59,077 bases of DNA from the IMG/VR virus record IMGVR_UViG_3300032236_001008, positions 1 through 59,077 of that record; one strand, 5' to 3'. A model generated the notes under the pieces. That model did no database searches. It was not told the DNA's origin and saw nothing but the letters and a program-made list of their open reading frames with translations. Positions 31,342 to 53,629 of this stretch are shown here, piece by piece (the stretch's first letter is position 1; every line of letters starts with the position of its first letter). The translations under genes were made by a program, and so were the position numbers. Source of the stretch: a virus (lineage: Duplodnaviria > Caudoviricetes).

Positions 31342-31348
31342 GTACTGC

Positions 31349-31737: not shown

Positions 31738-31768
31738 TACTAATGCAAAAAACCGGCTGAATCCGCCC
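31738..31768 (-). promoter_or_regulatory. Phage promoter GGGCG-N16-TGCATTAGTA
   Basis: Exact motif on the minus strand. Confidence 0.75.
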
Positions 31769-37499: not shown

Positions 37500-38120
37500 T
37501 CTTTTTATCCCTTTTTTTAATTTTTAATGCTAACTCAATCGAATACACCAATGCTTTCCACTGCTCTCGTTGCATAATGACAGGGACTAACTCCATTCCT
37601 TCATCTATTTCTGCAAACTTTTCAACGAGGTACTTTGACATTGCCTCTTCGTACTCTTTACTACGCTTTTTATCTTTGCTCATTTCTGTGATATCTATCG
37701 TGTGGGTTACGTAACATACTGGCAATGAGCTCGTCTACTGTCCAAAACCACTGAATGACTTTGAGTCCGTCTGCTTGGTAGATGGTGAAGCTCATTCTTT
37801 TGCACAAATAAATTTAGCGGTGTAGGTTTTATTGTTTGCCATATTAACAAACGCTTTACCTGCTTCCATACAACGCTCTTGGGTTACAAATGCAATATGG
37901 TCAACTGATACGGCTCTACTGTCCATAACGCCGACCTGGTAAACAAAAGTAATTAAAATCCACATAACCTATTCTCCTATTCCGTGGGCGCGTTCGATGG
38001 CGCGGGCGAACTCTAATAACCTAGGATTGAATGAGTAAAATTCACTCATTATCTCTTTTATTTGTTCTTCGGTCAACGGGGTACGTTGCGCATCTTGCCG
38101 GTCTTGTGTGGTGAAGGTCG

Positions 38121-38318
38121 TCATACCTTTTCTACCTCTGTCCATGCTGCAAAGTAGTAACGCTCGCCGTCTGTGCCTTCGCATGGTGCGTACATGCCAT
38201 CGACGTGGGTGTACTTGTACGTTACGTTATCGGCAGGCTGTGGGGCCGCTGGTGGCACCTTGGTCTCTTGATCAATCACTTTAAAGTTGTCGCCACGTTG
38301 TAATTTATAAAGTTCCAT
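38121..38318 (-). CDS. Hypothetical protein
   Basis: 65 aa with GGAG RBS. Confidence 0.5.
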   Translation of the reverse strand: MELYKLQRGDNFKVIDQETKVPPAAPQPADNVTYKYTHVDGMYAPCEGTDGERYYFAAWTEVEKV

Positions 38319-38319
38319 G

Positions 38320-38574
38320 TTATCTCCTAAACTGTGCTATTGGTTTGCGCCTGCCGTACGCACGGCGGATCTTTAGTGCGTGGACGCTACCAAACGTTCT
38401 GTTCTGCCAGCCTTGGTGTGCCCTGCGAATCTGTACCATCTTAAACCGAATCCAGCGCAAACGAAAGCGCTTCTTGCCGGCATACTGTAGCAACGTACGG
38501 CGCTTACCGACCCCACCAAAGATGTTGGTAAAGTCGTTGCGCTTAATGCGTTTGCGAAAGTTAAACTGTTTCAA
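38320..38574 (-). CDS. Arg/Lys-rich small protein
   Basis: 84 aa, coupled to primase stop. Confidence 0.35.
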   Translation of the reverse strand: MKQFNFRKRIKRNDFTNIFGGVGKRRTLLQYAGKKRFRLRWIRFKMVQIRRAHQGWQNRTFGSVHALKIRRAYGRRKPIAQFRR

Positions 38575-40898: not shown

Positions 40899-40899
40899 A

Positions 40900-40909
40900 T
40901 ACTAATGCA
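40900..40909 (-). promoter_or_regulatory. TGCATTAGTA -10 element without GGGCG
   Basis: Exact 10-mer immediately upstream of the primase start. Confidence 0.6.
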
Positions 40910-40947
40910 AAAATGGTGGTTTTGTCATTTCACAATGTGAAATAAAT

Positions 40948-41166
40948 TTGTCAGGGTAGTATGGGTTGTCAGGGTTTGATTTTTGTTCATTTTTCCATTT
41001 TTTCCTTTGCTTGACTCCAATAAAATCAACAACTTACTGATAAAATTGTCAGGGTAGTATGGGTAGTACCCCTCTAAATGACTTTTTTTTAGATTTTTTA
41101 AAAATAAAAATAAAATATTCTGAATGGACTTGACTTAGACCCTGACAACCCATACTACCCTGACAA
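40948..41166. repeat. Origin-like element 1: inverted TGTCAGGG/TAGTATGGG iteron arrays around an AT-rich core, plus IHF site
   Basis: 9-bp-period repeats facing each other; AATCAACAACTTA (41024-41036) matches WATCAANNNNTTR. Confidence 0.7.
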
Positions 41167-41176
41167 ATGATAACTT

Positions 41177-41371
41177 TTAGTTATATAGACTGTACCCTTT
41201 CCTAGCAATATGGTTATAAGCCCATTTTCTGAACTCTACCCGCTTTTCGGAGGTTTGCTCATCGTTTTCATCCCATTGGGCATCGATGATATGCTCCCCG
41301 TTGCCGTCGTGAAATTCAATCCGTAGCAAATTGCCGTCTTTGTCATAGACATCGGTTGGAATTGCCTTCAT
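41177..41371 (-). CDS. Hypothetical protein
   Basis: 64 aa, GGAG RBS. Confidence 0.5.
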   Translation of the reverse strand: MKAIPTDVYDKDGNLLRIEFHDGNGEHIIDAQWDENDEQTSEKRVEFRKWAYNHIARKGYSLYN

Positions 41372-41373
41372 AT

Positions 41374-41694
41374 TTACTCCTTTATCTTTGAATAACTGTC
41401 AACTACCCAACTAGACTTGTCTTCCCATGAGTCCTGTGTGCCATAATCACCCCTACTCATACGCATACGATCACGCTCTCTTTGTGGGGGTTCAATTGCC
41501 AGCCAGGCAGAGAACGCATCTTTATATTCCTGCCAATCGGGATTTGCTTCGTAAAATGGATGGTTAAATCCAGCCAAATCCACAGTAGATAGCACATCTG
41601 CCTGTCTAATCCACTTTTTTGCTCTTTTAACTATGCCCATCTTATTCCTTGCGGTTATATAGCGGTCATATGCTTTTTTCTGTTCTTCAGTCAT
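41374..41694 (-). CDS. Hypothetical protein
   Basis: 106 aa, GGAGG RBS. Confidence 0.5.
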   Translation of the reverse strand: MTEEQKKAYDRYITARNKMGIVKRAKKWIRQADVLSTVDLAGFNHPFYEANPDWQEYKDAFSAWLAIEPPQRERDRMRMSRGDYGTQDSWEDKSSWVVDSYSKIKE

Positions 41695-42274
41695 CGTTGC
41701 CTTCCTCCAAAAATTTCTCTTGTTTTAAATTGCTAAGTGATATCGGTTCTTTGCCGATATGTCCTTGTAATTGGCTTATCTTTGCTTCAGATATGCCCAT
41801 GATGGTGGCTAACTCTGACACTTTGGGTTCTCGCCCAAGTATTTGGGACAGATTACGCTTATTGTAGTTTAGCTTTTTAATCTGTTCCATGATGTTGATT
41901 GGTAAACGAATGATGTTTGCGGTATTGTCTAAATCCCTACGCACCCCTTTCTCGATGAACGACTTTGCGTATGTGGCAAATCTTGCGTTATTCGTAGGCT
42001 TCCATCTTTTGGCTGCCATAAACAATGCCTCATTACCCATCGCAAGGATATCCTCGACAGGCACTTTACTGTGATGCCAAGCAGTCATCTTACGCACGAC
42101 ATAAACCACAAAGCGTAAGTTATGGGTGATGAGTTTGTCTAACGCATCGTCATCACCCTTTTGTATCTGCTTGGCTAACTGATGTTCTTCCTCTATGGGT
42201 AAAGGTTCAACTCCATAGAGGGATTGTAAGTAATCGCTTAATAAATCATTTTCTTTCACCCGCGTTTCCTTCAA
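41687..42274 (-). CDS. Sigma-70 family factor with regions 1.2, 2 and 3 only (no region 4)
   Basis: DYLQSL..EEEHQLA..LITHNLRFVV..EDI..RFATYA..IIRLP..LGREPKVSELA..PISL then stop. Confidence 0.85.
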   Translation of the reverse strand: MKETRVKENDLLSDYLQSLYGVEPLPIEEEHQLAKQIQKGDDDALDKLITHNLRFVVYVVRKMTAWHHSKVPVEDILAMGNEALFMAAKRWKPTNNARFATYAKSFIEKGVRRDLDNTANIIRLPINIMEQIKKLNYNKRNLSQILGREPKVSELATIMGISEAKISQLQGHIGKEPISLSNLKQEKFLEEGNDD

Positions 42275-42406
42275 ATATTAACTGCAACAACTGTGGGAAA
42301 ACACATAATAGACCCCCAACAATCATAGCAATCAAGCCAAAAGTGATACCGCCCCCTGTTTCTATTGCACAAAAAGCGATAACAATAAATACGATTCCTA
42401 ACATTT

Positions 42407-42586
42407 TCATAGTGGTGATTCCTCTAAAAGTAATTTTGCCATTTCATACTGATTTGGCTGTGGTGGTAGTTTGACCAATTTTGCCCCATTGGTCAGGTAG
42501 GGTGTTGCTTCTGTTTTGCTTGCAAATTTCCTGATCGAATCTCCAAATTCGTCAATAAGTATAAATTTGTAGGCGGACTTTTTCAT
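42407..42586 (-). CDS. Small hypothetical protein
   Basis: 59 aa hand-translated, just downstream of TGGTATAAT. Confidence 0.45.
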   Translation of the reverse strand: MKKSAYKFILIDEFGDSIRKFASKTEATPYLTNGAKLVKLPPQPNQYEMAKLLLEESPL

Positions 42587-42592
42587 TTTTTA

Positions 42593-42601
42593 ATTATACC
42601 A
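42593..42601 (-). promoter_or_regulatory. Extended -10 host sigma70 promoter for the sigma-factor operon
   Basis: TGnTATAAT. Confidence 0.55.
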
Positions 42602-42744
42602 TAAAAGGTCAATTTGCCGAGTAAAATCAAAATGGGATAAGTCCTTTAAGGCGGAAAAAATTTTTTTATGCGTTCCCCCACCCTGTTTAAACTTACTGTG
42701 CATAGATACATATGTGTTTAAACGAGGTCGTAGGGTTAAAAAAA

Positions 42745-43095
42745 TTATTCAATGACATAGTAGGCACTATCTGATACTTTTTGACCCACACCCTCAATAG
42801 AATCCCCTATTTGACATATCTGCAATACTGCAATTCTCTCTTTAATCCACTTGGGCATATCCCCTATGTTTAAACGCGTTTTGCTGACTAAATTTTTTTC
42901 GTGGGCGGGCATGGCAAAACTATACAATGCGACTGTGCCATCATCATGGAATCTAACCCGCCACACCTGTTCAATGGTGCGGTGTAAATCCTCTGCAATC
43001 ATGCACAGATAATCTTCGGGTAGTAAGACAGGGCTATTGCCCTCCATGACGATATCGTCTATGCGGGCTATTGATACATTACTAATTATTGCCAT
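42745..43095 (-). CDS. Early hypothetical protein
   Basis: 116 aa; C-terminal domain similar to the 43508 ORF. Confidence 0.55.
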   Translation of the reverse strand: MAIISNVSIARIDDIVMEGNSPVLLPEDYLCMIAEDLHRTIEQVWRVRFHDDGTVALYSFAMPAHEKNLVSKTRLNIGDMPKWIKERIAVLQICQIGDSIEGVGQKVSDSAYYVIE

Positions 43096-43097
43096 GT

Positions 43098-43301
43098 TTA
43101 AACTGATCTCATTATGTCTGCTACTTCTTTGGTGATCTCTACATACGATTCAGTAGATACATTCAGCATTTTGTGGTGGTTATAACTCCACATATCAAAA
43201 CTGCGTGGCGGTTGTTCGTTGAAATCTAGCCAATCAGGTAGATCAGCAACTCCCACATCACCAAACTTCTTTCCCATCAGATATCTATACCTTGTGGACA
43301 T
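43098..43301 (-). CDS. Early hypothetical protein
   Basis: Ends ITKEVADIMRSV. Confidence 0.55.
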   Translation of the reverse strand: MSTRYRYLMGKKFGDVGVADLPDWLDFNEQPPRSFDMWSYNHHKMLNVSTESYVEITKEVADIMRSV

Positions 43302-43304
43302 TGT

Positions 43305-43523
43305 TTAAACACCTATCATTATATCAGCAACTTCTTTGGTTATCTTAACTATTTTATGATGTTCGGGGCGAATGGATTGATACGAATATGCATCATTATC
43401 AGCATCAACATACCATCGTAGGTCTATGATAAGCGGGTTATCTTGCACAATCTCATCGACCACGCAAAGATAACCCTCGTCATCAACTAATAACCAATCA
43501 CCAACTTTTAGGCGATTATCCAA
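43305..43523 (-). CDS. Early hypothetical protein
   Basis: Ends ITKEVADIMIGV. Confidence 0.55.
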   Translation of the reverse strand: MDNRLKVGDWLLVDDEGYLCVVDEIVQDNPLIIDLRWYVDADNDAYSYQSIRPEHHKIVKITKEVADIMIGV

Positions 43524-44344
43524 TATGCACCATCGTTTTCTTTTAGTCCAATATCTTCGACAAACTCTTGCTTATCGCCAATATCTAGCACAAACAGTTT
43601 ACCTTTGATGTTATCGGGTAATGCATCTTTAGATGGCACTTTAAATGGTTGCTCACCTTTGGTAGAGTTTAAACGATACTGCACTTCATTGTCTTTGACT
43701 AAAACAAAGTAGTGATCGGGGTCATAATTAGAATACTTGGCGATCTTCTCGGTGTTATCTACCAAATATAAGATCATCTTTTCAACTTTAGGATTCTGAA
43801 ACTTATGTCCCTGTTTGTGTAAGCCAATCAAATCTTCTGCAAATAACTGAATGTCATTACAAGTGTTGTTCCTGATCTCCCACCCCATGTTATATCCGAT
43901 TGCCTCCACCTCTTGCCTAAACTTTCGTCTTGCCCTGTCTGCAATCTGATCGAATGTAAATGGTTTAAACACTTTCTTTGCCACTCGCACAATGTTTTTA
44001 CTATGGATAGAGTATTTATACGCACCCTCACCCCCATATGTATGCCTACCATCAACAATATTTATGCTAGTGATGCCATACTTGGGTTTATGGGATTCGC
44101 TATTGTTGTAATAGTTTGATACCTCTAGCACACCAATATGATTGTTTAGATCACTAGAATGGAAAGCATATACCCCATCACAAACACCATTGGGGTATTC
44201 CTCTTTCACTATCCCCCATGTGTTTATGTTTTGGTGTTTAAACGAGATGTCGGGCATTACCTTAGCGATGTCGTTCATTAAGTTTGACAAATACTCTACT
44301 GTGTCAATACCATTGATGTTTACTGTTTTGATTTTGTTTGTCAT
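43508..44344 (-). CDS. Early hypothetical protein
   Basis: 278 aa ORF. Confidence 0.6.
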   Translation of the reverse strand: MTNKIKTVNINGIDTVEYLSNLMNDIAKVMPDISFKHQNINTWGIVKEEYPNGVCDGVYAFHSSDLNNHIGVLEVSNYYNNSESHKPKYGITSINIVDGRHTYGGEGAYKYSIHSKNIVRVAKKVFKPFTFDQIADRARRKFRQEVEAIGYNMGWEIRNNTCNDIQLFAEDLIGLHKQGHKFQNPKVEKMILYLVDNTEKIAKYSNYDPDHYFVLVKDNEVQYRLNSTKGEQPFKVPSKDALPDNIKGKLFVLDIGDKQEFVEDIGLKENDGAYWIIA

Positions 44345-44345
44345 G

Positions 44346-45293
44346 TTATCTATACCAATTCTTATATCTGTCGTGGGTTAATTGTCCAAGTGGCACTTCT
44401 GTTTTCTTACATGGTTTCACAATTCTAAATAGATCATTACAAATCTCTTTCGGCAATTTGTGTCGTTCATGTATTTGCTTTTCACCCGAGCCATAATATC
44501 TGTGGGTAATTTTATGCTTATAGCGTTCTACCATGTTTAACCATGAATCAGGCACATTACCATCTTGGGTTGGTTTAAACAATGCTATTGCCTCGTCTGC
44601 ATAAATCATTCGGTCATCATTACCAACAACTGCTTTATAAATTGGATTACCATACTCCCATTTATTTTCTACAATATCGCACATGATGTCATAGTATGCC
44701 ATGAATGGTTTGATGCTCTCACGCAACTGCTTAGTCTGTGTTCTATCTAGGGTGTGTTTAAACTCTCTGTGGACTACTAGCGGTAGCCAATGGTTTTCGC
44801 CCACCTTGCGTTGGAATGTAATATCCCCCAACTCAATCGAATAAAACTTATTGTCGTAGCGAACATACTTACTAGCACGATGGTTTACCATGCCAAAATC
44901 GGGCGGTAGGTTGAAATTGTAAAACCAAAATGTCGATGATGACGAAAATGCTCTTGGGTATAAATCCATTGATGGTGTTTGACCCCATACATTTTTAGGT
45001 GTATGGATTGTCATAAATTCCATGCCATTGTTTAAACTCCATGTGATCGCTTTGTTGTGGTTGTTGCGGTGTTGGTAATAGTCGAATGTAATGTAATACT
45101 CCGTATCGCTTACCTTTATCATGCGTTCCCATGCCCTATCTCTGCGGTTAATTGGGCGAATGTTTTGATCTTTGCGTTTACCACGCAAGGGTATTGTATC
45201 TTCGTATTGTTTTTGCACTTTGGCAAAATCATATCTACCACCTTGATTTTGTTGCACATCATACGGACTGCACGATTGTCTATAATATCCCAT
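44346..45293 (-). CDS. Early hypothetical protein
   Basis: ~315 aa; IPLRGKRK..IRPINRR N-terminal motif; GAGG RBS before the ATG at 45293. Confidence 0.6.
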   Translation of the reverse strand: MGYYRQSCSPYDVQQNQGGRYDFAKVQKQYEDTIPLRGKRKDQNIRPINRRDRAWERMIKVSDTEYYITFDYYQHRNNHNKAITWSLNNGMEFMTIHTPKNVWGQTPSMDLYPRAFSSSSTFWFYNFNLPPDFGMVNHRASKYVRYDNKFYSIELGDITFQRKVGENHWLPLVVHREFKHTLDRTQTKQLRESIKPFMAYYDIMCDIVENKWEYGNPIYKAVVGNDDRMIYADEAIALFKPTQDGNVPDSWLNMVERYKHKITHRYYGSGEKQIHERHKLPKEICNDLFRIVKPCKKTEVPLGQLTHDRYKNWYR

Positions 45294-45489
45294 CTTAATC
45301 CTCTCTTTCAATATCGTAAATTGCTAACCATTGTTTAAACACTTCGGGGTATGCCCCTTGAATCCAATCATATAAATGTATTGGGGGTGATTCGTTTTTG
45401 TGGAGATTGTGCAATCTTTCCTCGATCTGTTCATTCACCCACCAATCATCTTCGGGTTGATCACAAGGGTTGTCATATTCTCGCATTGT

Positions 45490-46674
45490 TTAAACCTCTA
45501 TCTTTATGGTTTGACCTATGGGCGATTTCACATCGCTACATATTGTCCACAAGGTAGGGCAATTCCATTGTCCACCCCAATCACTTCCTACATAGCCATC
45601 GGTAAGAATGATGGCACAAACAGGGTCAATCTTATGCTTACGCATATAGCGGGTGATACATGATGGGCTTGTGCCACCACCACCTTTGGGCTTGGTGCTA
45701 GATGTCATGCGGTCTGCATCGTTTAAACCATACACCTCATGCCCCGCCACATCACAATCCCAATACAGTAAATCTACCTGTTCAGGATTCATGTTCTGCA
45801 TGACACTTGCCACCTCACTAATGAATCGGTTTAACACCTCGCCATAAATACTGCCTGATGTGTCAATGGCAACAACAACTCTACCCATTGATTCACTTAT
45901 TGTAGATGGCATATAAATATCATGTTGTAGCCATCTGCGGTTAGGTTTTCGCCATGTTGAATCGTCTTTGCCTTGCGATACGCTAGATACAAACTCCCTA
46001 AGTGCCTCTTTCCAATCTACCTTTGCACTCATAAGATCGGTAAAACTGCGGTCAATGTTCCCACCAACTTTACCCGCTAAAATTGCACCTTGACGAATGG
46101 CTTGGTCAATCTCTTTGGCTAACTCGGTTTTCTCGGCATCGTTTAAACCATCTGCCCCCTCCCAATCGTGTTCATCAAATCCACCATCTGCGTTGGGGTT
46201 GTCGCATGGCTCACCACCATTACCTTTGGGTCTTGGCGGTTGTTGGGGTAGTAAAGCAAACACCTCGGCTGAGTTTAAACCACGAAACTTCTCATTGACC
46301 AATGCCCCATCGGGTAAGACTACAAATTTGTTTGACCTTTCCGATTCGTCTTTGATTTCAAGATTGATAACATAATCACAAGCCATGTTAGCCCTTTCGG
46401 GGTCTTGCTTGTGTAGGTGTTTCCATGTGAGTAAATGGCGATACATCTTGTGCTTAGCCTCATGCAAAATCAAGCCACGCAACTGCGGGTCGTTTAAACT
46501 CATTACAAAATCCCTACCAAACTTAACATCTTTACCATTGGTGCAAGCGGTTAGTGTCTTGTCATCTATCTTTGTTTCACCAATCATCAAGATACCCGAA
46601 TAGGCTACAAACTGCGGGGACTTCATTAAATCAATGTGGCATCTTTCAATGCGTTGTTCTGCGGTAAGTGTCAT
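45490..46674 (-). CDS. HExxH metallopeptidase-like plus VWA domain protein (DUF2201-type)
   Basis: TACTNG, LHEAKH, NMACDYVIN, VAIDTSGSI MIDAS, GGGGT, ILTDGY. Confidence 0.85.
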   Translation of the reverse strand: MTLTAEQRIERCHIDLMKSPQFVAYSGILMIGETKIDDKTLTACTNGKDVKFGRDFVMSLNDPQLRGLILHEAKHKMYRHLLTWKHLHKQDPERANMACDYVINLEIKDESERSNKFVVLPDGALVNEKFRGLNSAEVFALLPQQPPRPKGNGGEPCDNPNADGGFDEHDWEGADGLNDAEKTELAKEIDQAIRQGAILAGKVGGNIDRSFTDLMSAKVDWKEALREFVSSVSQGKDDSTWRKPNRRWLQHDIYMPSTISESMGRVVVAIDTSGSIYGEVLNRFISEVASVMQNMNPEQVDLLYWDCDVAGHEVYGLNDADRMTSSTKPKGGGGTSPSCITRYMRKHKIDPVCAIILTDGYVGSDWGGQWNCPTLWTICSDVKSPIGQTIKIEV

Positions 46675-46676
46675 GT

Positions 46677-46853
46677 TTAAACACTCCCCATCTGAAAGAG
46701 TTTAATTGCTTGTAGTGGGTCGGTTGCCATCATGGTAATGGTTTTCGGTTGCCATGATGTATCTACCAACTGCTCAAAACTAACTTCGTGCTTGGCATAT
46801 TCGTCAATGCTTTCCATGTCAATGCACCTTGCCATAATGTTTTTGGTTTCCAT
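46677..46853 (-). CDS. Small early ORF
   Basis: 58 aa hand-translated; stop lies inside GTTTAAAC. Confidence 0.45.
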   Translation of the reverse strand: METKNIMARCIDMESIDEYAKHEVSFEQLVDTSWQPKTITMMATDPLQAIKLFQMGSV

Positions 46854-47012
46854 GATTTATTCCTCGTCATCTTGGGTTAATCGTTCTGCCATGCCACGAA
46901 TAAAATCTTCGGGCAAGTATCTCATAAGTAAATCTACAAGGTAGGCGGTTTCCGAATCATAAAAATAATTTACAACTGCCTCTCTTTGGTTATCGGTTAG
47001 TCGTAGCATTGT

Positions 47013-47183
47013 TTAAACCCCCTCGCTTATCTCGTAGATTTCGCACTCAATCGTATCAACTTCGACACAATCGGGAATTGGGTTTACCATGTAAAGTTTA
47101 TCCAACTCTTGCCATGCTTGTTCCTCTGAATCGGCAACAACTGTGGTATAGATCGTGGCAACTTCTCTAAATGTGAATATCAT
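47013..47183 (-). CDS. Small acidic early ORF
   Basis: 56 aa hand-translated (VVADSEEQA); bounded by GTTTAAAC at both ends. Confidence 0.5.
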   Translation of the reverse strand: MIFTFREVATIYTTVVADSEEQAWQELDKLYMVNPIPDCVEVDTIECEIYEISEGV

Positions 47184-47185
47184 GT

Positions 47186-47374
47186 TTAAACCTCCATCAC
47201 TCTAACTCGATCACCCTCGATCACTACCTTTGCCTTACCCTCGCCAATTAGTTTAAAACCTAACTGTTGAACAATAATTGCCATCTTGTAGTGTTCCCCT
47301 TTGTGCCTGTAAAAAACTGCTAGGACTGTGGCTATCGTAGCCCATACCACTAAAAACAATTCACTCGATTCCAT
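47186..47374 (-). CDS. Small membrane-anchored early protein
   Basis: N-terminal TM; GAGG RBS. Confidence 0.5.
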   Translation of the reverse strand: MESSELFLVVWATIATVLAVFYRHKGEHYKMAIIVQQLGFKLIGEGKAKVVIEGDRVRVMEV

Positions 47375-47572
47375 AATTTTCCTCGTAGGTTAGATATGGT
47401 TTAAACACCTTGCACTTATCACCAAATACATAAAAGAGGGGGTTGGATTCTTTCACCAATTCCCGCTTTTCTTTGGCGGTCTGTGCTTGGGTCATGCGAT
47501 ATTGCAAAGACTGTTTAAACTCTTGCTCAATCTTGTTCACTCGCATTTTTAGACTGTATGTTCCCATTACTT

Positions 47573-48649
47573 TTAATTGCTCTGTGCGAAAAGATAATTG
47601 TTTGCGGTAGCCCATTTAATAAACCCCTGTGATGTGCCTACTGTTGTCTTTTTGCTTGTTCGCATAACGCTAGTAGCGAATAGCCCTTGTGCCTCTTTAC
47701 TTAGTCGGTTCATGTATTCAATCCACTTATTGATGTTGTCCTTTTCTACCTGTTGAATGGCTGAATAGACCAACATACAAACTGCACTAGCACTCTCAGG
47801 CACTTTCGTTTTGGTTGGCTCTTTGATGATCGCCTCCCATGTTGGCAACTCATCTGTTAATTGAATGATAGAGAGCATATCGTAAGTGGCTCGGTTGCCG
47901 ATTGTTCCTTTAAGTGCGTGTGCCATAGTGTCGATGCCTAGTGGCTTTGATTTTTTGATGATATCCGATGCCCTGTTTAAACTGCGTGGTGTGCAAAATG
48001 CGGGGCGGGGTGTTCGTGGGTCGTAGATGTATTCATTGTCTGATGCGTTGGTAAAATCTTCGAATGATGCCAACATCTGCGGAAATTGTTTTACTGTGAG
48101 TAATACTTCGGGGGCGATGTCGTTGTCTAAAGCCCATTCAATCCACTCATCTGCTGATGGTTTACGCACCTTAACCACGCTAATGCGGTTTCGTGCATGG
48201 GGTGGGAGATTATCGCCTATCGCCTCATTCGCTAAGTTTGTGGTAGCGAATACGATACTGCCCTCGGGTAATGAGTAAGTGCCTAGTTTTCTTTCCAACA
48301 TCAATCTAAGGCAAGCATTCATAACTGCCTTACTTGCTTTGCCGATCTCATCAAGCATTAAAACTATGGGCTTATCGTGGTGAAAGCCAAATTCCTCGTT
48401 GGGAATAAAACTACAAACTTCGGTGTCGTTTAAACTGCGTATCTTGGGGACTAAAAAATCCCCTACATCTTTAGTAGTCATATCACCATAACAGAAGTGA
48501 TGATTCGGTAGTTTAGATTTAAGGATAGATAGAATAGAGGACTTACCTATACCCATCTCGCCCTGTGCTAGGACTGTGGTTGTATCGCCAACTGCGAGGA
48601 TAAGGTCGGCGGTTTGTTGAAGTGAAAGCGATTTGTATAAATCAGTCAT
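47573..48649 (-). CDS. MoxR-like AAA+ ATPase
   Basis: GEMGIGKS Walker A, LMLDE Walker B, ATTN, NR, TPRSL. Confidence 0.85.
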   Translation of the reverse strand: MTDLYKSLSLQQTADLILAVGDTTTVLAQGEMGIGKSSILSILKSKLPNHHFCYGDMTTKDVGDFLVPKIRSLNDTEVCSFIPNEEFGFHHDKPIVLMLDEIGKASKAVMNACLRLMLERKLGTYSLPEGSIVFATTNLANEAIGDNLPPHARNRISVVKVRKPSADEWIEWALDNDIAPEVLLTVKQFPQMLASFEDFTNASDNEYIYDPRTPRPAFCTPRSLNRASDIIKKSKPLGIDTMAHALKGTIGNRATYDMLSIIQLTDELPTWEAIIKEPTKTKVPESASAVCMLVYSAIQQVEKDNINKWIEYMNRLSKEAQGLFATSVMRTSKKTTVGTSQGFIKWATANNYLFAQSN

Positions 48650-48766
48650 GTGTTGCCTTTCTTTGGTCGATTGTTTTACTGCTGAAAACTTGGATTATAT
48701 AAATCAGGGGCAAAACAAAATACTAGGAATAACCCCAATAATAAAATGGTGCATAAAATATCGTCT

Positions 48767-48952
48767 TTACTCATGGTGTTTAAACTCCCTTATCCAATCA
48801 ATGTAAACTTTATCAAGATCAAGCCATTGTGCCATTCGTTTTCTGTTGGGTTTATCAATGGGGTAAATCAATAGAATCTCATTACCTACTCGTTTTAAGT
48901 AGTAATAAAATTCGGGCTTGTCGGGCTTGCGATATAACTTAATCACTTGCAT
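48767..48952 (-). CDS. Small early protein
   Basis: 61 aa; start adjacent to GTTTAAAC. Confidence 0.45.
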   Translation of the reverse strand: MQVIKLYRKPDKPEFYYYLKRVGNEILLIYPIDKPNRKRMAQWLDLDKVYIDWIREFKHHE

Positions 48953-49249
48953 TGTTTAAACACCCTCTAAATATTTAATGTTGGTGATTGTGGTGCTATG
49001 CGTATCAGGAAAGCGGATAGTAGCCCACTCCCCTGATATGCTCACGATCTCAACAAGATCAAGCCCGCACCACATGGCTAGATCGCCCCTACTCATGGTT
49101 TTCACCCAATACAAACCCGAGGGTAAAGCAAGCCAACACAAGCCCAACAACTGCCCACAAAGGGGTTTGTTCTATAACTGCCTGAATACATAAAACGGCT
49201 AATGTGATGATAATAGATAAAATGCCTACGAATAAATTGTTCATGTTGT

Positions 49250-49492
49250 TTAAACACTCCCTAAAAGATTGTCAAAATATGTTTGTGGTTGTTCGGTTGC
49301 CTTTGCACCATCTAGCCATTTATTGATATGGCGGGAGGTTGTCATACTCCATTTTTTAGCGGTGCGGTTAAATGAATAAGTGCCTTTATCAAAACTTGCG
49401 ACAGGTGTTGCATAGCTAAACAATACAATGTGTTTAGGGGTTTCTAATAGGGTCATATTAGAGGCGATAGGTTTTACTGATAAGTTTGTCAT
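49250..49492 (-). CDS. Early phage protein
   Basis: VLFSYATPVA..KWSMTTSRHINKWL motif. Confidence 0.6.
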   Translation of the reverse strand: MTNLSVKPIASNMTLLETPKHIVLFSYATPVASFDKGTYSFNRTAKKWSMTTSRHINKWLDGAKATEQPQTYFDNLLGSV

Positions 49493-49540
49493 AATGTTTT
49501 TTCCTTGTTTAAACAAGGGGGCGGGATTGCCCCCTTATGG

Positions 49541-49744
49541 TTAGATTGTTGGTTTGCCTAGCATCTGTGCCAATTCATTGTAAACAGATTCTCTAGTGCC
49601 TTTCAAGCCCAATTCCTTTTTGATTAGGCTATACATGGTCATGCCCCGAGATACTTTTAAGCCCTTAATTTCAAGCCCTAAGCCCCGCAAAATGGTCATG
49701 TAGCGGAATTGGTTTATCTGTGTTGGGTTGGTGATCATTGTCAT
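49541..49744 (-). CDS. Early phage protein
   Basis: LGLEIKGLKVSRG..YSLIKKELGLKG. Confidence 0.55.
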   Translation of the reverse strand: MTMITNPTQINQFRYMTILRGLGLEIKGLKVSRGMTMYSLIKKELGLKGTRESVYNELAQMLGKPTI

Positions 49745-49746
49745 GT

Positions 49747-50103
49747 TTAAACACTCCATTCGTTGATTGGGTATTGATCGGGATTGGCGAGGGTTAGCCC
49801 CTCAATGGCGGGTATGTTAGTGCCGATATGGTTATCATAAAACGAACCCCTCGGGGATTGATACACAATGGCATCACGATACACAATGCCCTTACTATCA
49901 CCTAGCACAAATCGCCCTGATAGTTTGCCTTTGCTTGCTTGGGTGTCGCTAGATGTTGCACCCGATCTAAAGTGCATCTTTGCATTGGCTTTGTCGCTAT
50001 CAAAATGCCAATATGGTTTGTAGGCAAACATCGCAACATTGGCGGGCTTGCCATCGCTACACAATACAGTCTTAGCGGTGATTCTATATACATATGTTCC
50101 CAT
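49747..50103 (-). CDS. Early hypothetical protein
   Basis: 118 aa, AAGGA RBS. Confidence 0.55.
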   Translation of the reverse strand: MGTYVYRITAKTVLCSDGKPANVAMFAYKPYWHFDSDKANAKMHFRSGATSSDTQASKGKLSGRFVLGDSKGIVYRDAIVYQSPRGSFYDNHIGTNIPAIEGLTLANPDQYPINEWSV

Positions 50104-50157
50104 TGTTCTATTTCCTTTGTAGGTTAGTGATCAATTAAGTGGAATATCCACACTCAA

Positions 50158-50186
50158 ATTAGATCAAATTCGGGTGGGTGTGTAAA
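50158..50186 (-). promoter_or_regulatory. Host sigma70-type early promoter
   Basis: TTTACA-17-TCTAAT with TG extension, followed by GTGGA-TAT-TCCAC palindrome. Confidence 0.55.
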
Positions 50187-50397
50187 GCGATTCTTTATAT
50201 CTATTAGTAATAAAACAACGGGCTTTTATACTAAGGGTTTACCCTCGAAAATCGAGATCGTGTATGGTCTAACCCTAACCCACACACTCGCCACGAAAGA
50301 GGCTAAAAAGGGGCTTAAAATGGCTCTAAATTGATTGGGGTATTATGGCGGGTTGGTGGATTTTGGCGGGGTGGTTGTTTAAACATATGAGAGGGGC

Positions 50398-50427
50398 AAA
50401 AAAAAAATCGGGGCATAAAGCCCCGAT
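50398..50427 (-). terminator. Rho-independent terminator
   Basis: ATCGGGGC-TTTAT-GCCCCGAT followed by a long U-run on the minus strand. Confidence 0.7.
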
Positions 50428-50684
50428 CTGTTTAACCCTTGCGGGCTAGATTCGCACTTGTGCGATTATGGTCATACCCTCTAGGTATTGAGCAAACTCT
50501 TTAGCACTCTTTAGAGTTTTAAACTCATAAACTTTATGGGCGGTTTTGATTGTGTATTTATATTTAGGTTTCGCCCTTGCCTTGAGGGTTTTAGCACTTG
50601 GGAACATATCGGTATGTTTTAACATGGTTTATTTTCCTTTGGTAGTTTAAACATGGGGGCGGTTTGCCCCCTTGCGGGGTTGGC

Positions 50685-51311
50685 TTATTCCTCGCCCTCA
50701 TCTTTGCCCTCGAGGGGTAGAAAATCGTGGGTCATATCGCCATGACCTAGCGGGCATCGTGGTGTTGCAAGTTTTAGCCACTTGCTAGATATCCGCATGG
50801 TGTAGCCACAAGCATAGCAATCACACTTGTGTAAGCGGGTGGATTGCTTTCTCATGTTTACCTGTAATGATTCATGGGGATATTCACCCGCCTCGCTAAC
50901 CCATTGGGCTAGTAATACTTTGAGGGATTCACTAGCATTGGTGCTAGTGGGTTTGCCCTCTAATCCAACAGCATAGGCACAATTCTCAAATACCTTGCCA
51001 TGACCCTCGTTTAAACCTACTGTCGCATGGCATAGCTCATGGATAAGGGTGTCTAATACTTCGATACTATTGGATTCGTTAGGCACGATCACGATTTCAA
51101 AATTGCGGTGATTGCCTTGTGAATCGGTATTGCTCATACATTGACCCGCTACGAATCGTTTTTGACCCTTGCGTTTAAATGCCCCTTTAGTGCTAAATGA
51201 ACATGAGAATTTAATATCCTCGGGGATTGTGTAGCCCTTAGATTCAAACATGGGCTTAATGAATTGCTCAGTCATATGGTTGAGCCATGATTCTCTATTA
51301 AGTAATTGCAT
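50685..51311 (-). CDS. SprT-like zinc metalloprotease with C-terminal Zn ribbon
   Basis: LIHELCH..GHGKVF; CxCxxC..CPxGH. Confidence 0.75.
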   Translation of the reverse strand: MQLLNRESWLNHMTEQFIKPMFESKGYTIPEDIKFSCSFSTKGAFKRKGQKRFVAGQCMSNTDSQGNHRNFEIVIVPNESNSIEVLDTLIHELCHATVGLNEGHGKVFENCAYAVGLEGKPTSTNASESLKVLLAQWVSEAGEYPHESLQVNMRKQSTRLHKCDCYACGYTMRISSKWLKLATPRCPLGHGDMTHDFLPLEGKDEGEE

Positions 51312-51627
51312 GGTGTTCTATTCCTATCTATTAGTGGTTAGTAATCATGTGGAAAATCCACACCTAATACTCTCATGGTTTAAACAACATTAGGATAGGG
51401 ATATACCCTTAAGGGTTTACCCTATTAGGGTTTACCCTCGAAAATCGAGATCGCAACCCCTCCGATACCTATACCCCATCGGGGGCGAAAACGGCTAAAA
51501 AGCCCCTTAAAACGATTCCTATTGGATTCTCATAATGTGGAATGGCTAGGGGTGCGGGCTTGCGTAATAACCCTATAAACTAAAGGGATAAACCCTCACA
51601 CCCTCGCACCCGCATAGCCCTATCACC

Positions 51628-51822
51628 TATGTTGCACCGCACCATATAACCACATTGGCATTATGGTTATGTTGCACCGCACCATATTGCCCGCCCTGTT
51701 TAAACACCCACCCATATAACCATATTGGCATTGTGGTTATTATGTTGCACCGCACAATGGCGTATCGGATATGTTGCACCGCACAAAGACCTTACTGCCA
51801 TTGTGGTTATGTTGCACCGCAC
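51628..51822. repeat. 5 x TATGTTGCACCGCAC direct repeats
   Basis: Copies at 51628, 51668, 51741, 51770 and 51808; irregular spacers. Confidence 0.9.
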
Positions 51823-51982
51823 CATGCGTTTCACATTATGAGATTAGATTCCACAATGCGGAATAGGGGGCTTAACTTGTGAGGCGATACCCCTTTATGC
51901 AGACCCCCACCCCCCTCGGCCCGGGGGCCCCACAAAGCTCAAGTTTTTATAAAACCGCATTTTTAAAATTTTTTTGTAAAAA

Positions 51983-52368
51983 TTGTCAGGGTTGTCAGGG
52001 TTTGCTTTTTAAATTGTCAGGGTTTAATTTTTGCATTTTGTAAAATTTTTTTGTAAATTTTTTAAATAAATCAATAACTTACAAGCGCAATTAACCTACA
52101 CCCCTGATTCCGCCGTGAAAGTGTTTGATCTTATTAGATAAAGTGTTAAAATTGTCAGGGTAGTATGGGTAGTACCCCTCTATATCACTTTATTTTAAAA
52201 TTTTAAAAAATAAAAAATAAATATTATGGAGTAAGTACGTTTAGACCCTGACAACCCATACTACCCTGACAATTGGTTGCTAAGTTGTTGATTCATATAG
52301 GGCCAAATAAGAATTATTCTCAATAAAGTGCTAAAACCAAACCCTGACAACCCATACTACCCTGACAA
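51983..52368. repeat. Origin-like element 2 (iterons, AT core, two IHF sites)
   Basis: 36-bp and 32-bp blocks identical to element 1 with the same 94-bp offset; IHF consensus at 52069-52081 and 52281-52293. Confidence 0.7.
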
Positions 52369-52380
52369 TTTTGGGTCATG

Positions 52381-52411
52381 GGGCGTAAAACCCCCAGTTT
52401 TTGCATTAGTA
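52381..52411 (+). promoter_or_regulatory. Phage promoter GGGCG-N16-TGCATTAGTA
   Basis: Exact motif; ATG 5 nt downstream. Confidence 0.75.
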
Positions 52412-52416
52412 AGTCT

Positions 52417-52722
52417 ATGAATGATTACGCATATCAAATCAAAGGAGCGTTGGAAAACGCTCAGGGCCAATTCATTGGTCTGCGAGTATTGGTTTGTGAC
52501 ATCAATAACTTTGAAATCGTGGATGTACCGGTGGAAGTCTTGGATAAAGAGACCACCAAGTATTTGCAATACCGCCTCAAAGTTACAGACGTGATAGATA
52601 TCCAGCGCTTACCTATCCCTGTTCAGAACAGAATACGCGCTCCGTTAGGGAGATGGCTCGACTACTGGGTCGTAAAAAACTTTTATGGCAATTCTATCGA
52701 ACGAAAAAGTACTAACTCTTGA
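52417..52722 (+). CDS. Hypothetical protein (probably leaderless)
   Basis: MNDYAYQIKG..; ATG directly after the promoter. Confidence 0.55.
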   Translation: MNDYAYQIKGALENAQGQFIGLRVLVCDINNFEIVDVPVEVLDKETTKYLQYRLKVTDVIDIQRLPIPVQNRIRAPLGRWLDYWVVKNFYGNSIERKSTNS

Positions 52723-53629
52723 TTATTGGAAACCTGCATCTAAACTGCAAGTAGGCGATTACGTATTTGACCAGTCCGGCACCCCGGTCCAAATTAAACT
52801 GGTTCAAGAGTATCGCGCCCAATCTTGCTATGAGGTAACGTTTAATGATCACCTGCGCATATCAGGAGACGATAAGCTGGGTTTTCTTATGGAAACTCCA
52901 AAGTATCGCAAAAGAACATACGAATATAAACGTGTCCAGCCATTTAGGCGCCCGTTAAAACCATTTACTGTATCCCAGTTAGACTTACTGGAACTTAGGG
53001 ACCACAGAAAAAGGTTAATATTTTCCATACCCACTGCTAAACCATTAGCACTCCCCCACCAAGATTTACCGATACCACCATTTATCTTTGGTCTTTGGTT
53101 TTTTAATAGAAAACCATTAAACCAATCTGACTTTATTGTTGATAAGTTTAAAGATTATGGGTATAAGATTGACAAGAATGGCAATATAACGCCATCTATT
53201 ACCCAGCAGCTGGCACCCAATATCCCAACAACCATTCCGTCAAACTATTTACTAGCTTCCCCGGAGCAACGTACGGAATTATTGTCTGGCATACTGCATT
53301 CTAAGTCACGCCAATATCATGCCAAAGACGATAGATTTAGATTTTCTTCTAGCCACTATGGTACAATACTACAGATACAAGGATTAGTTGAATCATTAGG
53401 ACACAGATCAAGATTATCGTTTGATGAAACGTACAAGTATTACACCATTTCGTTTAAATCACGTACCAAATTAATGGAAGAGCAAAAGTCTCCGCCAATT
53501 AAGGTACACCAAGCTCGCCGATACGTAACCAAGATTGATTCCATACCAAATCAATCTTGCATACACATTGAAACTAATGGCAAAGACAACACGATTCTTG
53601 TAGGAGAAGGATTTATAGCATGCCGTTAA
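52685..53629 (+). CDS. Free-standing intein-like protein (Hint plus degenerate LAGLIDADG)
   Basis: Block A-like AILSNEKVLT..LQVGDYVFDQSG; IPSNYLLASPEQRTELLSGIL; block F/G-like CIHIE..LVGEGFIACR. Confidence 0.7.
   Translation: MAILSNEKVLTLDYWKPASKLQVGDYVFDQSGTPVQIKLVQEYRAQSCYEVTFNDHLRISGDDKLGFLMETPKYRKRTYEYKRVQPFRRPLKPFTVSQLDLLELRDHRKRLIFSIPTAKPLALPHQDLPIPPFIFGLWFFNRKPLNQSDFIVDKFKDYGYKIDKNGNITPSITQQLAPNIPTTIPSNYLLASPEQRTELLSGILHSKSRQYHAKDDRFRFSSSHYGTILQIQGLVESLGHRSRLSFDETYKYYTISFKSRTKLMEEQKSPPIKVHQARRYVTKIDSIPNQSCIHIETNGKDNTILVGEGFIACR

What the first reader, a model, noticed from the sequence alone, without database searches (positions are those of the whole stretch)
42685..51705. Early region tiled with ~34 regularly spaced GTTTAAAC palindromes
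Seen: exact GTTTAAAC at 42685, 42716, 42868, 43096, 43303, 43667, 43963, 44236, 44573, 44756, 45030, 45333, 45488, 45721, 46141, 46273, 46492, 46675, 47011, 47184, 47399, 47513, 47975, 48428, 48778, 48954, 49248, 49507, 49745, 50377, 50645, 51009, 51378 and 51698. That is about one per 270 bp (largest gap ~630 bp), against about 10 in the other 50 kb. Copies occur inside genes and between genes, so the DNA word itself appears to be selected. Inference: a binding-site lattice on the first-entering DNA for a phage-ejected or host protein, for example to shield it from nucleases, ratchet genome internalisation, tether it, or silence the early block. I know of no described system matching this.
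Basis: partly seen in the sequence, partly recalled or inferred. Interest (0 to 1): 0.88.

Follow-up and report, generated by a model that had tools for sequence, protein, structure and literature searches.

The report
Phage DNA word paired with reader protein
The early genes of this phage are studded with an exact 8-letter DNA word that evolution keeps re-creating, and across phages of very different bacteria this word travels with one small, uncharacterised protein that is probably its reader.

Summary
GTTTAAAC occurs 44 times in the window against 2.05 expected, with 34 copies in 42685-51705. Spacing there is far more even than random. Enrichment survives synonymous-codon shuffling. In relatives, sites inside a conserved gene arise by synonymous change, amino-acid replacement or short insertion. 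The word itself is therefore selected.

The field coincides with one accessory leftward operon. 58 sister loci share the backbone but lack both this operon and the word. That argues against a general genome-entry ratchet.

The word co-occurs with the operon's first large gene, an SprT-like protein with a conserved C-terminal zinc-ribbon-like module.
- A module profile hits 37 of 45 lattice loci and 0 of 115 non-lattice loci.
- All 80 loci fetched only by homology to a distant family branch carry the word.
- Cultured phages of Methylophilales, Dinoroseobacter and Pseudanabaena carry it.
- A Microbacterium phage uses GTGTAAAC instead.

Best reading: a cis lattice read by this phage-encoded protein. 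Its function is unproven; roadblock/occlusion or DNA-anchored protease are the candidates. I found no description of it in the held paper library.

The parts
42685..51705 (.). GTTTAAAC lattice: 34 exact copies. Effective site is about YGTTTAAACR.
   Evidence: Flank preference, both strands pooled, in 485 clade sites: T 0.52, C 0.20, A 0.17, G 0.12 at position -1.
50685..51311 (-). SprT-like protein (208 aa, HELCH motif). It is the first large gene of the operon and the candidate reader of the word.
   Evidence: Pfam SprT-like scores 25.9 bits against a cut-off of 25.6.
50727..50882 (-). C-terminal ~50-aa zinc-ribbon-like module (YPH..KQxTRxxKxxC..R.S.K..P.CP). It is the part conserved in all family branches and also occurs as a stand-alone 55-62 aa protein.
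   Evidence: Alignments. Stand-alone forms in L220, L222 and L232 follow ORF-free leaders.
42685..42723 (.). Distal pair of sites 31 nt apart, at the end of the operon. They lie about 100-130 nt upstream of the next operon's TGgTATAAT promoter-like element.
   Evidence: Relatives end the field with 2-3 sites 25-41 nt apart.
47573..48649 (-). MoxR-like AAA ATPase gene with 2 internal sites.
45490..46674 (-). DUF2201 (metallopeptidase-like plus VWA-like) gene with 4 internal sites. It is the test case for site gain.
   Evidence: Pfam. Codon alignment of 33 homologues.
42745..45311 (-). Three unknown genes (116, 278 and 321 aa) carrying 7 internal sites.
   Evidence: The 321-aa protein models with pLDDT 88.2 and has no PDB fold match at E<=0.001 among 320 listed.
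49250..49744 (-). Two small conserved genes: a DUF8033-like one of 80 aa and a 67-aa helical protein.
51991..52367 (.). Divergent control region with ACCCTGACAA repeats (TGACA -35-like) in both orientations. The leftward copies precede the lattice operon.
41177..42586 (-). Next operon: a sigma factor with regions 1.2, 2 and 3 only (41687-42274) plus conserved small genes. It carries no site in this window.
516..54792 (.). Ten sparse sites outside the field: 516, 15933, 19922, 23965, 28216, 30793, 32764, 33833, 38726, 54785.
   Evidence: 8 are internal to ORFs against 1.09 expected.

Best explanation
GT(T/G)TAAAC, here the palindromic form GTTTAAAC with a Y..R flank preference, is a cis-acting address word on phage DNA. 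It is read by a phage-encoded protein.

In this phage the word is kept at about one per 270 nt through one accessory early operon, and at about one per 4 kb elsewhere. It is placed at gene junctions where that costs nothing, and it is forced into coding sequence where genes are long.

It either roadblocks or occludes, giving autoregulation and shut-off of this operon, or it anchors the SprT-type protease domain on phage DNA.

Shown: selection on the word, its spacing, its turnover, and its co-occurrence with the protein family across phages of three host phyla. Inferred: binding itself, and what binding does.
For: (1) DNA-level selection.
- 19 internal sites against 3.99 expected under synonymous shuffling.
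- In the DUF2201 gene of 33 homologues, sites at six alignment columns arise by synonymous change (GGG CTT AAT to GGT TTA AAC), by replacement (E/D-M-T to G/S-L-N, with S and G both keeping xGT), or by a 3-4 codon insertion. This happens in different sublineages.

(2) Even spacing, CV 0.43. Over 46 loci and 539 sites the median gap is 311 nt.

(3) The lattice is tied to the operon, not to the backbone.
- Of 80 sigma-selected loci, 22 carry the lattice.
- 58 have at most 2 sites and 0 of 58 have any of the operon's genes.
- 57 of those 58 keep sigma and 49 of 58 keep the primase.
- Their early regions show no comparable word.

(4) Word selection leads to the protein.
- I analysed 80 of the 119 stretches found with a two-site pattern. 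Of these, 23 are lattices.
- The only window protein hit is the SprT-like one: 12 lattice loci with a hit, 11 without, 2 sparse loci with a hit, and 55 background loci without.
- By clustering it is the most widely shared family, in 17 of 23 loci against 9 of 23 for the next family.

(5) Protein selection leads to the word.
- 80 of 80 loci fetched by homology to a branch about 32% identical to the window protein have at least 3 sites.
- 77 of 80 have at least 0.5 per kb, against about 0.035 per kb by chance.

(6) A profile of the C-terminal module hits 21 of 23 and 16 of 22 lattice loci. It hits 0 of 57 and 0 of 58 non-lattice loci.

(7) Branches that lost HExxH, and stand-alone module proteins, keep the densest lattices: L182 has 37 sites in 12.4 kb and L220 has 24 in 7.3 kb.

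(8) Cultured phages that carry a homologue.
- Methylophilales phage Venkman: 34 sites, 24 of them in the first 10 kb against 0.44 expected. The gene is gp1.
- Dinoroseobacter phage R26L: 20 sites.
- Pseudanabaena phage Pan1: 16 sites.
- E. coli phage ep3: 4 sites, one of them 20 nt upstream of the gene.
- Microbacterium phage SuMoo: 0 GTTTAAAC but 16 GTGTAAAC.
- The reversed-word controls for these counts give 0 in every case.

(9) The site spectrum co-varies with the protein branch. Group 2 has 294 GTGTAAAC/GTTTACAC beside 830 exact sites and prefers C at -1 (0.47). In the window's clade this variant is not among the six commonest, and T is preferred at -1 (0.52).
Against: - No binding was measured or modelled.
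- The homodimer job gave no answer.
- Co-occurrence could be linkage: the SprT-like gene may simply mark a kind of early region whose true reader is another, faster-evolving protein.
- No recognised sequence-specific DNA-binding fold is known for SprT zinc ribbons. This statement is recalled, not tested.
- SuMoo keeps every invariant residue of the module yet uses only the variant word, so the specificity determinants are unidentified.
- E. coli phage ep3 has only 4 sites.
- MAG homologues at 34-37% identity have 0-1 site.
- Roadblocking does not obviously explain the genome-wide ~4 kb lattices of R26L and Pan1.
- A protease role does not explain the protease-dead and stand-alone forms.
Confidence: 0.55

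Rival explanations
1. The lattice is read by a different phage protein that is co-inherited with the SprT-like gene. The SprT-like gene would then be only a linked marker, for example an anti-restriction protease that is typically expressed first.
For: Association is not binding. The operon holds many small unannotated proteins. A 67-aa conserved helical protein gave a non-significant profile hit (E=1) to R-M controller HTH proteins.
Against: No other family is shared as widely: 9 of 23 for the next family against 17 of 23. The 67-aa and DUF8033 proteins are confined to the window's clade. Stand-alone module proteins occur where full-length SprT is absent. Cultured carriers from three host phyla share no other obvious early gene (annotations).
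Confidence: 0.17
2. A host protein or host machine reads the word. Candidates are a nucleoid protein, an R-M enzyme, RNA polymerase or a topoisomerase. The SprT-like protease would then act on that bound host protein.
For: SprT/SPRTN-type enzymes are DNA-dependent proteases that remove DNA-bound proteins (abstracts listed). GTTTAAAC has the form of a type II restriction site; the PmeI identity is recalled.
Against: The hosts span Pseudomonadota, Cyanobacteriota and Actinomycetota. Only a universally conserved factor could serve, and none with this specificity is known to me. Enrichment is the opposite of restriction avoidance. Sister phages lack the word. Protease-dead and module-only forms keep lattices.
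Confidence: 0.08
3. The word is a recombination or cassette-boundary signal. A site-specific cut, or microhomology at gene junctions, would drive shuffling of early genes.
For: Ends of blastn similarity between the window and relatives lie within 10 nt of a site in 38 of 177 cases against 17.7 expected (0 of 2000 randomisations). Swapped cassettes are bounded by sites.
Against: The test is confounded. Sites sit at gene junctions, where mosaics break anyway, and a conserved 8-mer extends HSPs to itself. It does not explain the 19 intragenic sites gained by substitution or the genome-wide ~4 kb lattices. No recombinase or endonuclease was found in the operon.
Confidence: 0.08
4. The signal acts at the RNA or translation level. 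The word would be an SD-to-AUG spacer with a built-in stop codon for translational coupling, or an RNase or sRNA target for decay of early mRNA.
For: 15 of the 34 sites are not internal to ORFs. Many of these lie between a GGAG-like Shine-Dalgarno sequence and ATG, and supply the upstream TAA.
Against: Intragenic sites occur in both non-stop frames, so there is no frame rule. Sites occur in genes of both strands across whole genomes. Flank preferences are symmetric, Y at -1 and R at +1. SuMoo carries its asymmetric variant in both orientations (13 and 3) although the genes in the stretch examined all read one way.
Confidence: 0.05
5. This is the first reader's version: a lattice on first-entering DNA for an ejected or host protein that ratchets, tethers or shields the genome during entry.
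For: The field starts right after the outward-facing early promoters. In Venkman the dense part occupies the first 9 kb of a record that the paper describes as 'linear but complete'. Spacing has an upper bound.
Against: Sister phages with the same backbone do without it. R26L and Pan1 spread the sites over the whole genome. The genome ends of the window are unknown. The candidate reader is an early gene product.
Confidence: 0.07

Closest known systems
Mycobacteriophage cluster A stoperators with their immunity repressor (L5, Bxb1). PMC6550527 passages read; PMC9283540 abstract seen.
   Same: Many copies of one short, nearly invariant site are dispersed through transcribed regions and gene junctions. 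They are read by one phage protein. The site consensus co-varies with the protein between lineages, and most sites are not in promoters.
   Different: Stoperators are 13-bp, asymmetric and oriented with transcription. Their reader is a repressor of temperate phages. Here the word is 8 bp and usually palindromic, and it is much denser (34 in 9 kb). It is built into coding sequence by amino-acid change. It is conserved across phages of three host phyla. No integrase or repressor was found in the 60 ORFs scanned. The associated protein is SprT-like.
KorB/OB sites of plasmid RK2 and ParB/parS-type centromere arrays (recalled, not read here).
   Same: Exact short palindromes are scattered over a replicon and bound by one element-encoded protein that silences or organises DNA from those sites.
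   Different: No ParB-like domain was found among the 60 ORFs scanned. Copy number and density are far higher here, and sites lie inside genes.
SPRTN/Wss1/SprT DNA-dependent metalloproteases (PMC5127644 and PMC9240642, abstracts in the listings).
   Same: There is an N-terminal SprT-like HExxH domain (Pfam PF10263) followed by a small zinc-binding module. For the eukaryotic enzymes, activity on DNA is known.
   Different: Those enzymes are not known to be sequence-specific (recalled). Some members here have lost HExxH, or consist of the C-terminal module alone, yet keep the lattice.
Uptake sequences (DUS/USS) and Chi sites of bacteria (recalled).
   Same: These are exact 8-12-mers, strongly over-represented and evenly spaced. 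They are tolerated in coding sequence by shaping codons and residues. A spacing of about 4-5 kb resembles the sparse mode seen here.
   Different: They are read by host uptake or RecBCD machinery, are genome-wide and are orientation-dependent. No link to such machinery was found here.
Streptomyces phage phiC31 conserved inverted repeats bound by its repressor (recalled).
   Same: There are multiple palindromic operators through an early region.
   Different: Those repeats are 17 bp, intergenic, fewer than 20 in number, and belong to a temperate phage.

Membership tests
Stoperator/repressor arrays (mycobacteriophage cluster A) | Many dispersed copies of one site, mostly outside promoters | tested here: met
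   34 copies in one operon: 19 inside ORFs, the other 15 at junctions or intergenic.
Stoperator/repressor arrays (mycobacteriophage cluster A) | Asymmetric 13-bp site oriented with transcription | tested here: not met
   The word is an 8-bp palindrome. The feature itself is taken from the PMC6550527 passages.
Stoperator/repressor arrays (mycobacteriophage cluster A) | Cognate immunity repressor in a temperate genome | tested here: not met
   No HTH repressor or integrase was found in the 60 window ORFs scanned with Pfam, out of about 95 called.
Stoperator/repressor arrays (mycobacteriophage cluster A) | Bound protein blocks transcription elongation | not testable with these tools
   Needs in vitro transcription or RNA-seq. 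No RNA run was listed.
SprT-like metalloprotease family (PF10263) | Profile match at or above the curated cut-off | tested here: met
   25.9 bits against 25.6 for the window protein, and 29.4 for L005. Several branch members score below the cut-off.
SprT-like metalloprotease family (PF10263) | HExxH zinc-binding motif | tested here: met
   HELCH is present in the window protein. It is absent in L182, L221, L238 and L254.
SprT-like metalloprotease family (PF10263) | DNA-dependent protease activity | not testable with these tools
   Needs a biochemical assay.
ParB/parS or KorB/OB systems | ParB-type protein encoded by the element | tested here: not met
   No ParB-like domain was found in the 60 ORFs scanned (same calls as above). 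About 35 small or structural ORFs were not scanned.
Type II restriction-modification target | Cognate endonuclease or methyltransferase gene, and avoidance of the site by the phage | tested here: not met
   No such domain was found in the scanned ORFs. The site is enriched about 20-fold, not avoided.
N4-type hairpin promoters for a virion RNA polymerase | Giant virion RNAP gene and a hairpin-forming inverted repeat | tested here: not met
   The largest ORF is 955 aa. That an 8-bp palindrome without a spacer cannot form a hairpin is inference. Other lineages sharing the MoxR-VWA genes do have 16-21 bp palindromes and 1850-2180 aa ORFs of unknown function.

The most novel reading that the evidence does not exclude
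GT(T/G)TAAAC is a pan-phage 'address code'. A small zinc-ribbon module, usually fused to an SprT-type protease, reads an 8-bp word that phages of at least three bacterial phyla write into their own DNA at controlled spacing. Spacing is about 0.3 kb in early operons and about 4 kb genome-wide. The protein would then be a sequence-addressed, DNA-anchored protease or occluder. It would strip or exclude DNA-bound host proteins (defence nucleases, silencers, polymerases) from phage DNA only. That would be a new class of self-marking and counter-defence.
Probability: 0.3. Interest if true: 0.92.

Novelty: new variant of a known kind. Interest (0 to 1): 0.85.

Why it matters
If the pairing is functional, it assigns a first activity to a large uncharacterised phage protein family. 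That activity would be sequence-specific DNA reading.

The family is large. A profile search found 4348 cluster representatives at E<=0.001 and 1681 at E<=1e-30. All source names seen for it are 'hypothetical protein'.

It would also explain a striking compositional feature of many environmental phages. One example is Venkman, which its paper reports as the third most abundant phage in a coastal virome (PMC8163748 passage).

It shows that a cis-word can shape protein sequences of unrelated genes.

It is directly testable in cultured pairs: Dinoroseobacter shibae with R26L or R5C, Microbacterium foliorum with SuMoo, and Pseudanabaena with Pan1.

Practically, the word is a cheap marker for this kind of early region in metagenomes. 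Note also that it is the PmeI cloning site (recalled).

Tried and rejected
Helical phasing of sites. None was found at 10, 10.5 or 11 bp (n*R^2 at most 1.94).

Nearest named relative by terminase, MW202545.1. Its early and replication genes are unrelated, so it gave no information.

Domain searches. Pfam on 60 window ORFs and PHROGs on 20 found no HTH, RHH, ParB, methylase, endonuclease or integrase in or near the field. The only nearby hit is an HNH gene at 30906-31298.

PDB profile searches. The 321-aa, 278-aa, DUF8033, 67-aa and SprT-like alignments gave nothing significant.

Structure models. The 321-aa protein folds confidently (pLDDT 88.2), but 0 of 320 Foldseek PDB matches reach E<=0.001. 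The 67-aa protein gave a poor model (pLDDT 60.6) and I did not search with it.

ESM Atlas. It returned only the proteins' own kind: unnamed viral clusters and DUF8033.

Complex prediction. I sent two copies of the C-terminal module with zinc. The result was 'no answer' and I do not use it as evidence either way.

The look-up of sequencing runs. No RNA holder was listed, and the six DNA rows are Logan contigs. I did not use read laying, because contigs cannot show molecule ends.

The repeat finder on three distant MAG homologue loci showed no tiled word, but the tool is not suited to 8-mers.

An idea I gave up: that the other lineages' long palindromes prove a dimeric reader here. Those lineages may have other explanations. 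L080's pairs look like extended -10 promoters, and G003, G004 and G007 have giant ORFs. In addition, the asymmetric variant GTGTAAAC works in group 2 and in SuMoo.

An idea rejected: that the phage sigma factor reads the word. The 58 sister loci keep sigma without the word.

Paper searches. No description of the word as a phage feature was found. No sequence-specific phage SprT-like protein was found. The main text of the Venkman paper has 0 occurrences of 'SprT', 'palindrom', 'motif' or 'repeats'. Supplements were closed and may hold more.

Full report
THE OBSERVATION

GTTTAAAC occurs 44 times in the 59077-nt window against 2.05 expected, and 0 of 100 dinucleotide shuffles reach 44.

The window is a whole IMG/VR virus record, linear and 91% complete.

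Inside the field the 33 gaps average 273 nt, with CV 0.43 and a largest gap of 632 nt. Random placement gives CV 0.97. None of 20000 simulations is as even.

Recognition looks all-or-none. 34 of the 38 TTTAAA cores in the field carry the G..C flanks, and only 6 one-mismatch variants exist there.

Shuffling synonymous codons within each of 20 field ORFs gives 3.99 internal sites on average against 19 observed (0 of 2000 shuffles). The 41 ORFs outside the field hold 8 against 1.09 (0 of 500). So the word is selected genome-wide, about 20 times more densely in the field.

ANATOMY

All genes in the field read leftward on the minus strand. Of the 34 sites, 19 are inside ORFs, in both frames that avoid the stop. 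The other 15 are intergenic or sit at junctions of the form Shine-Dalgarno, word, (A)ATG, where the word's TAA ends the upstream gene. As a result many proteins end in Val.

The field begins just downstream of a divergent control region at 51991-52367. That region carries ACCCTGACAA repeats that read as TGACA -35 boxes with -10-like elements at about 17 nt.

The field ends with two sites 31 nt apart (42685, 42716). These lie ahead of the next operon, which starts with a TGgTATAAT element and encodes a sigma factor lacking region 4.

The operon encodes:
- an SprT-like protein (50685-51311);
- small unknown proteins, one of them DUF8033-like;
- a MoxR-like ATPase;
- a DUF2201 metallopeptidase/VWA protein;
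- three unknown proteins.

The rest of the genome looks like a lytic podovirus with its own replication genes. It has a T7-type tail-fibre N-terminus, an SU10-type adaptor, family A DNA polymerase, primase, class II RNR and an Enc34-type SSB. No integrase or repressor was seen in the 60 ORFs scanned.

THE WORD IS SELECTED AS DNA

Eighty loci were fetched through the DUF2201 protein. Of these, 23 carry 14-40 copies per 21 kb or less, and the other 57 carry at most 2.

I made a codon alignment of this gene from 33 genomes. Sites occupy six different columns in different sublineages, and they arise in three ways:
- by synonymous change (RGLNSA is encoded GGG CTT AAT in some genomes and GGT TTA AAC in others);
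- by replacement (E/D-M-T becomes G/S-L-N, with Ser and Gly alternating while the nucleotides xGT stay);
- by a 3-4 codon insertion (VFK, AFKP) in a third frame.

This is site turnover at roughly constant density.

WHAT THE LATTICE IS TIED TO

A profile of the sigma factor fetched 80 loci.
- 22 have the lattice.
- 58 have at most 2 sites.
- 57 of those 58 share sigma, 49 of 58 share the primase, and 31-34 of 58 share the genes on the terminase side, at 50-75% identity.
- 0 of 58 have any gene of the tiled operon.
- Their early regions are shorter: 3.9-7.8 kb against 8.1-9.6 kb, in the 38 loci that hold both flanking markers.
- Those early regions show no comparable word.

So the lattice belongs to an accessory operon, not to the virion or the backbone. 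Sister phages enter cells without it. This counts against a general ratchet or entry shield.

THE KEY ASSOCIATION

I scanned IMG/VR for two copies of the word 20-50 nt apart. I analysed 80 of them.
- 23 are lattices, with up to 37 sites in 12.4 kb.
- Their only similarity to window proteins is to the SprT-like one.
- The contingency is: lattice with a hit 12, lattice without 11, sparse with a hit 2, background without 55.
- Clustering their ORFs makes the SprT-like family the most widely shared, in 17 of 23 loci. The next family is in 9 of 23.

The family has an N-terminal SprT/WLM-like domain. HExxH is present in the window protein and lost in four members. It also has a conserved C-terminal module of about 50 residues (YPH, KQxTR, K, C, R, P-C). 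In three lattice contigs the module stands alone as a 55-62 aa protein behind an ORF-free leader of about 700 nt.

A profile of this module hits 21 of 23 and 16 of 22 lattice loci in the two sets that were chosen without regard to it. It hits 0 of 57 and 0 of 58 non-lattice loci. The two lattice loci missed in the first set, L008 and L021, stop short of the operon's start.

In the reverse direction, 80 loci were fetched only by homology to a branch about 32% identical to the window protein. All 80 carry the word with at least 3 sites. 77 have at least 0.5 per kb and 48 have at least 1 per kb, against about 0.035 per kb by chance. Sites lie on both sides of the gene.

CULTURED PHAGES

The family occurs in 174 INPHARED records. 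I tested five.

| Phage | Genome size | Sites | Notes |
|---|---|---|---|
| Methylophilales phage Venkman | 38.6 kb | 34 | 24 in the first 10 kb against 0.44 expected (0 of 200 shuffles). Many sit at annotated gene ends. The SprT-like gene is gp1. |
| Dinoroseobacter phage R26L | 79.5 kb | 20 | Spread over the whole genome at about 4 kb. |
| Pseudanabaena phage Pan1 | 72 kb | 16 | Spread over the whole genome at about 4.5 kb. |
| E. coli phage ep3 | 42.4 kb | 4 | One site is 20 nt upstream of the gene. |
| Microbacterium phage SuMoo | 49.2 kb | 0 GTTTAAAC, 16 GTGTAAAC | 13 in one orientation and 3 in the other. One site is about 50 nt upstream of the gene. |

By my hand arithmetic on the positions, circular gap CVs are about 0.37 for R26L and 0.53 for Pan1.

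The reversed-word control for the counts above was 0 in every case. For the GTGTAAAC pattern, where ep3 has no site, the reversed word occurs twice in ep3.

The same variant, GTGTAAAC/GTTTACAC, is common in the distant metagenomic branch: 294 beside 830 exact sites in 743 kb. In the window's clade it is not among the six commonest variants. The preferred base at -1 also shifts, from T (0.52) to C (0.47). Purines are disfavoured in all three groups.

The hosts of the cultured carriers belong to three phyla. This makes a host-specific reader very unlikely.

INTERPRETATION

I commit to the following. The word is a cis address read by a phage protein, most probably the C-terminal module of the SprT-like protein. 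I give 0.55 for word plus reader together, and about 0.85 for 'protein-recognition lattice' alone.

What binding does is inference. Protease-dead and module-only forms keep the densest lattices, so occupancy itself seems to matter.

In this window the tiling covers exactly one operon whose first large product is the candidate reader. It has an upper bound on gaps and a terminal site cluster next to the following promoter. This fits self-limiting coating or roadblocking of that operon, that is, early shut-off. I put this at about 0.35.

A DNA-anchored protease that clears bound host proteins is the bolder alternative, at about 0.3 in the form stated in the section on the most novel reading. It fits the genome-wide ~4 kb lattices better.

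The variant GTGTAAAC shows that palindromy is not obligatory. I therefore do not claim a dimer.

RIVALS

The rivals are scored separately above: linked but different reader, host factor, recombination boundary, RNA or translation signal, and entry ratchet. The recombination idea has one positive result, similarity breakpoints near sites (38 of 177 against 17.7 expected), but that test is confounded by gene junctions.

COMPARISON WITH KNOWN SYSTEMS

The nearest described kind is the dispersed operator array. The best example is the stoperators of cluster A mycobacteriophages, whose consensus co-varies with the repressor (PMC6550527, passages).

This case differs in several ways:
- word length and symmetry;
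- density;
- embedding in coding sequence;
- apparent lytic lifestyle;
- protein family;
- conservation across phyla.

I therefore file it as a new variant of a known kind. A categorically new reading remains open.

I found no paper in the held library describing the word as a phage feature, or a sequence-specific phage SprT-like protein. Supplements were closed.

LIMITS

- No binding evidence was obtained.
- Only 60 of about 95 window ORFs were scanned for domains.
- Only 80 of the 119 motif-selected stretches were analysed.
- Loci within a set are phylogenetically related, so the counts are not independent events.
- The metagenomic sets may share ancestry that I could not resolve.

Noticed in passing
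window 40956-41165 and 51991-52367: The word ACCCTGACAA occurs 13 times, often as ACCCTGACAACCCATACTACCCTGACAA. It is found only in two clusters that bracket the 41-52 kb block, in both orientations. It reads as TGACA -35 boxes with -10-like elements about 17 nt downstream, but it could also be iterons. Relative G001 has its own word, GGTACAGGCACAAC, about 13 times.
   Followed up: partly
window 51312-51940: The leader of the tiled operon is about 600 nt long and ORF-poor. It carries about 5-6 copies of GGTGCGGTGCAACATAAC-like repeats and AGGGTAAACCCT palindromes. Module-only relatives (L220, L222, L232) also have ORF-free leaders of about 700 nt. It may be a structured RNA or a binding platform.
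   Followed up: no
window 41687-42586: The sigma factor has regions 1.2, 2 and 3 but no region 4. Its operon starts with TGgTATAAT only 5 nt before the first ATG, which suggests a leaderless transcript. The sigma gene, a 106-aa gene and a 64-aa gene are conserved in 49-57 of the 58 sister loci.
   Followed up: partly
window 33612-35017: The phage encodes a beta-ketoacyl synthase-like protein next to a weak acyl-carrier (PP-binding) match. The named relative MW202545.1 also has a 3-oxoacyl-ACP synthase.
   Followed up: no
L037-L084, G003, G004 (loci sharing the MoxR/DUF2201 genes): Other lineages carry their own early-region palindromes. ATACTGTCNGACAGTAT occurs 11 times in L054. TAACA[AT]TGTTA occurs 20 times in L068, including inside the MoxR and VWA genes, and with TAA..ATG used at junctions. 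Others are ATTCGGGACWGTCCCGAAT (G003), TCCCTACGGGTAGGGA (G004) and GTTATAAC pairs (L080). None has the SprT-like module. They may be a parallel phenomenon with other readers.
   Followed up: partly
window 43098-43523: Two adjacent small genes are paralogues with the same C-terminal tail (…ITKEVADIM…V). Each ends in the word.
   Followed up: no
PQ184831.1 (Microbacterium phage SuMoo), whole record: The asymmetric variant GTGTAAAC is strongly strand-biased, 13 forward and 3 reverse. The three reverse copies are at 6787, 28773 and 31674. Whether this polarity follows replication or transcription was not examined.
   Followed up: no
L257-L295: 39 further motif-selected stretches were fetched but not analysed for proteins. 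Several are lattices by count: L284 has 21, L274 has 19, and L262, L266 and L269 have 15 each.
   Followed up: no
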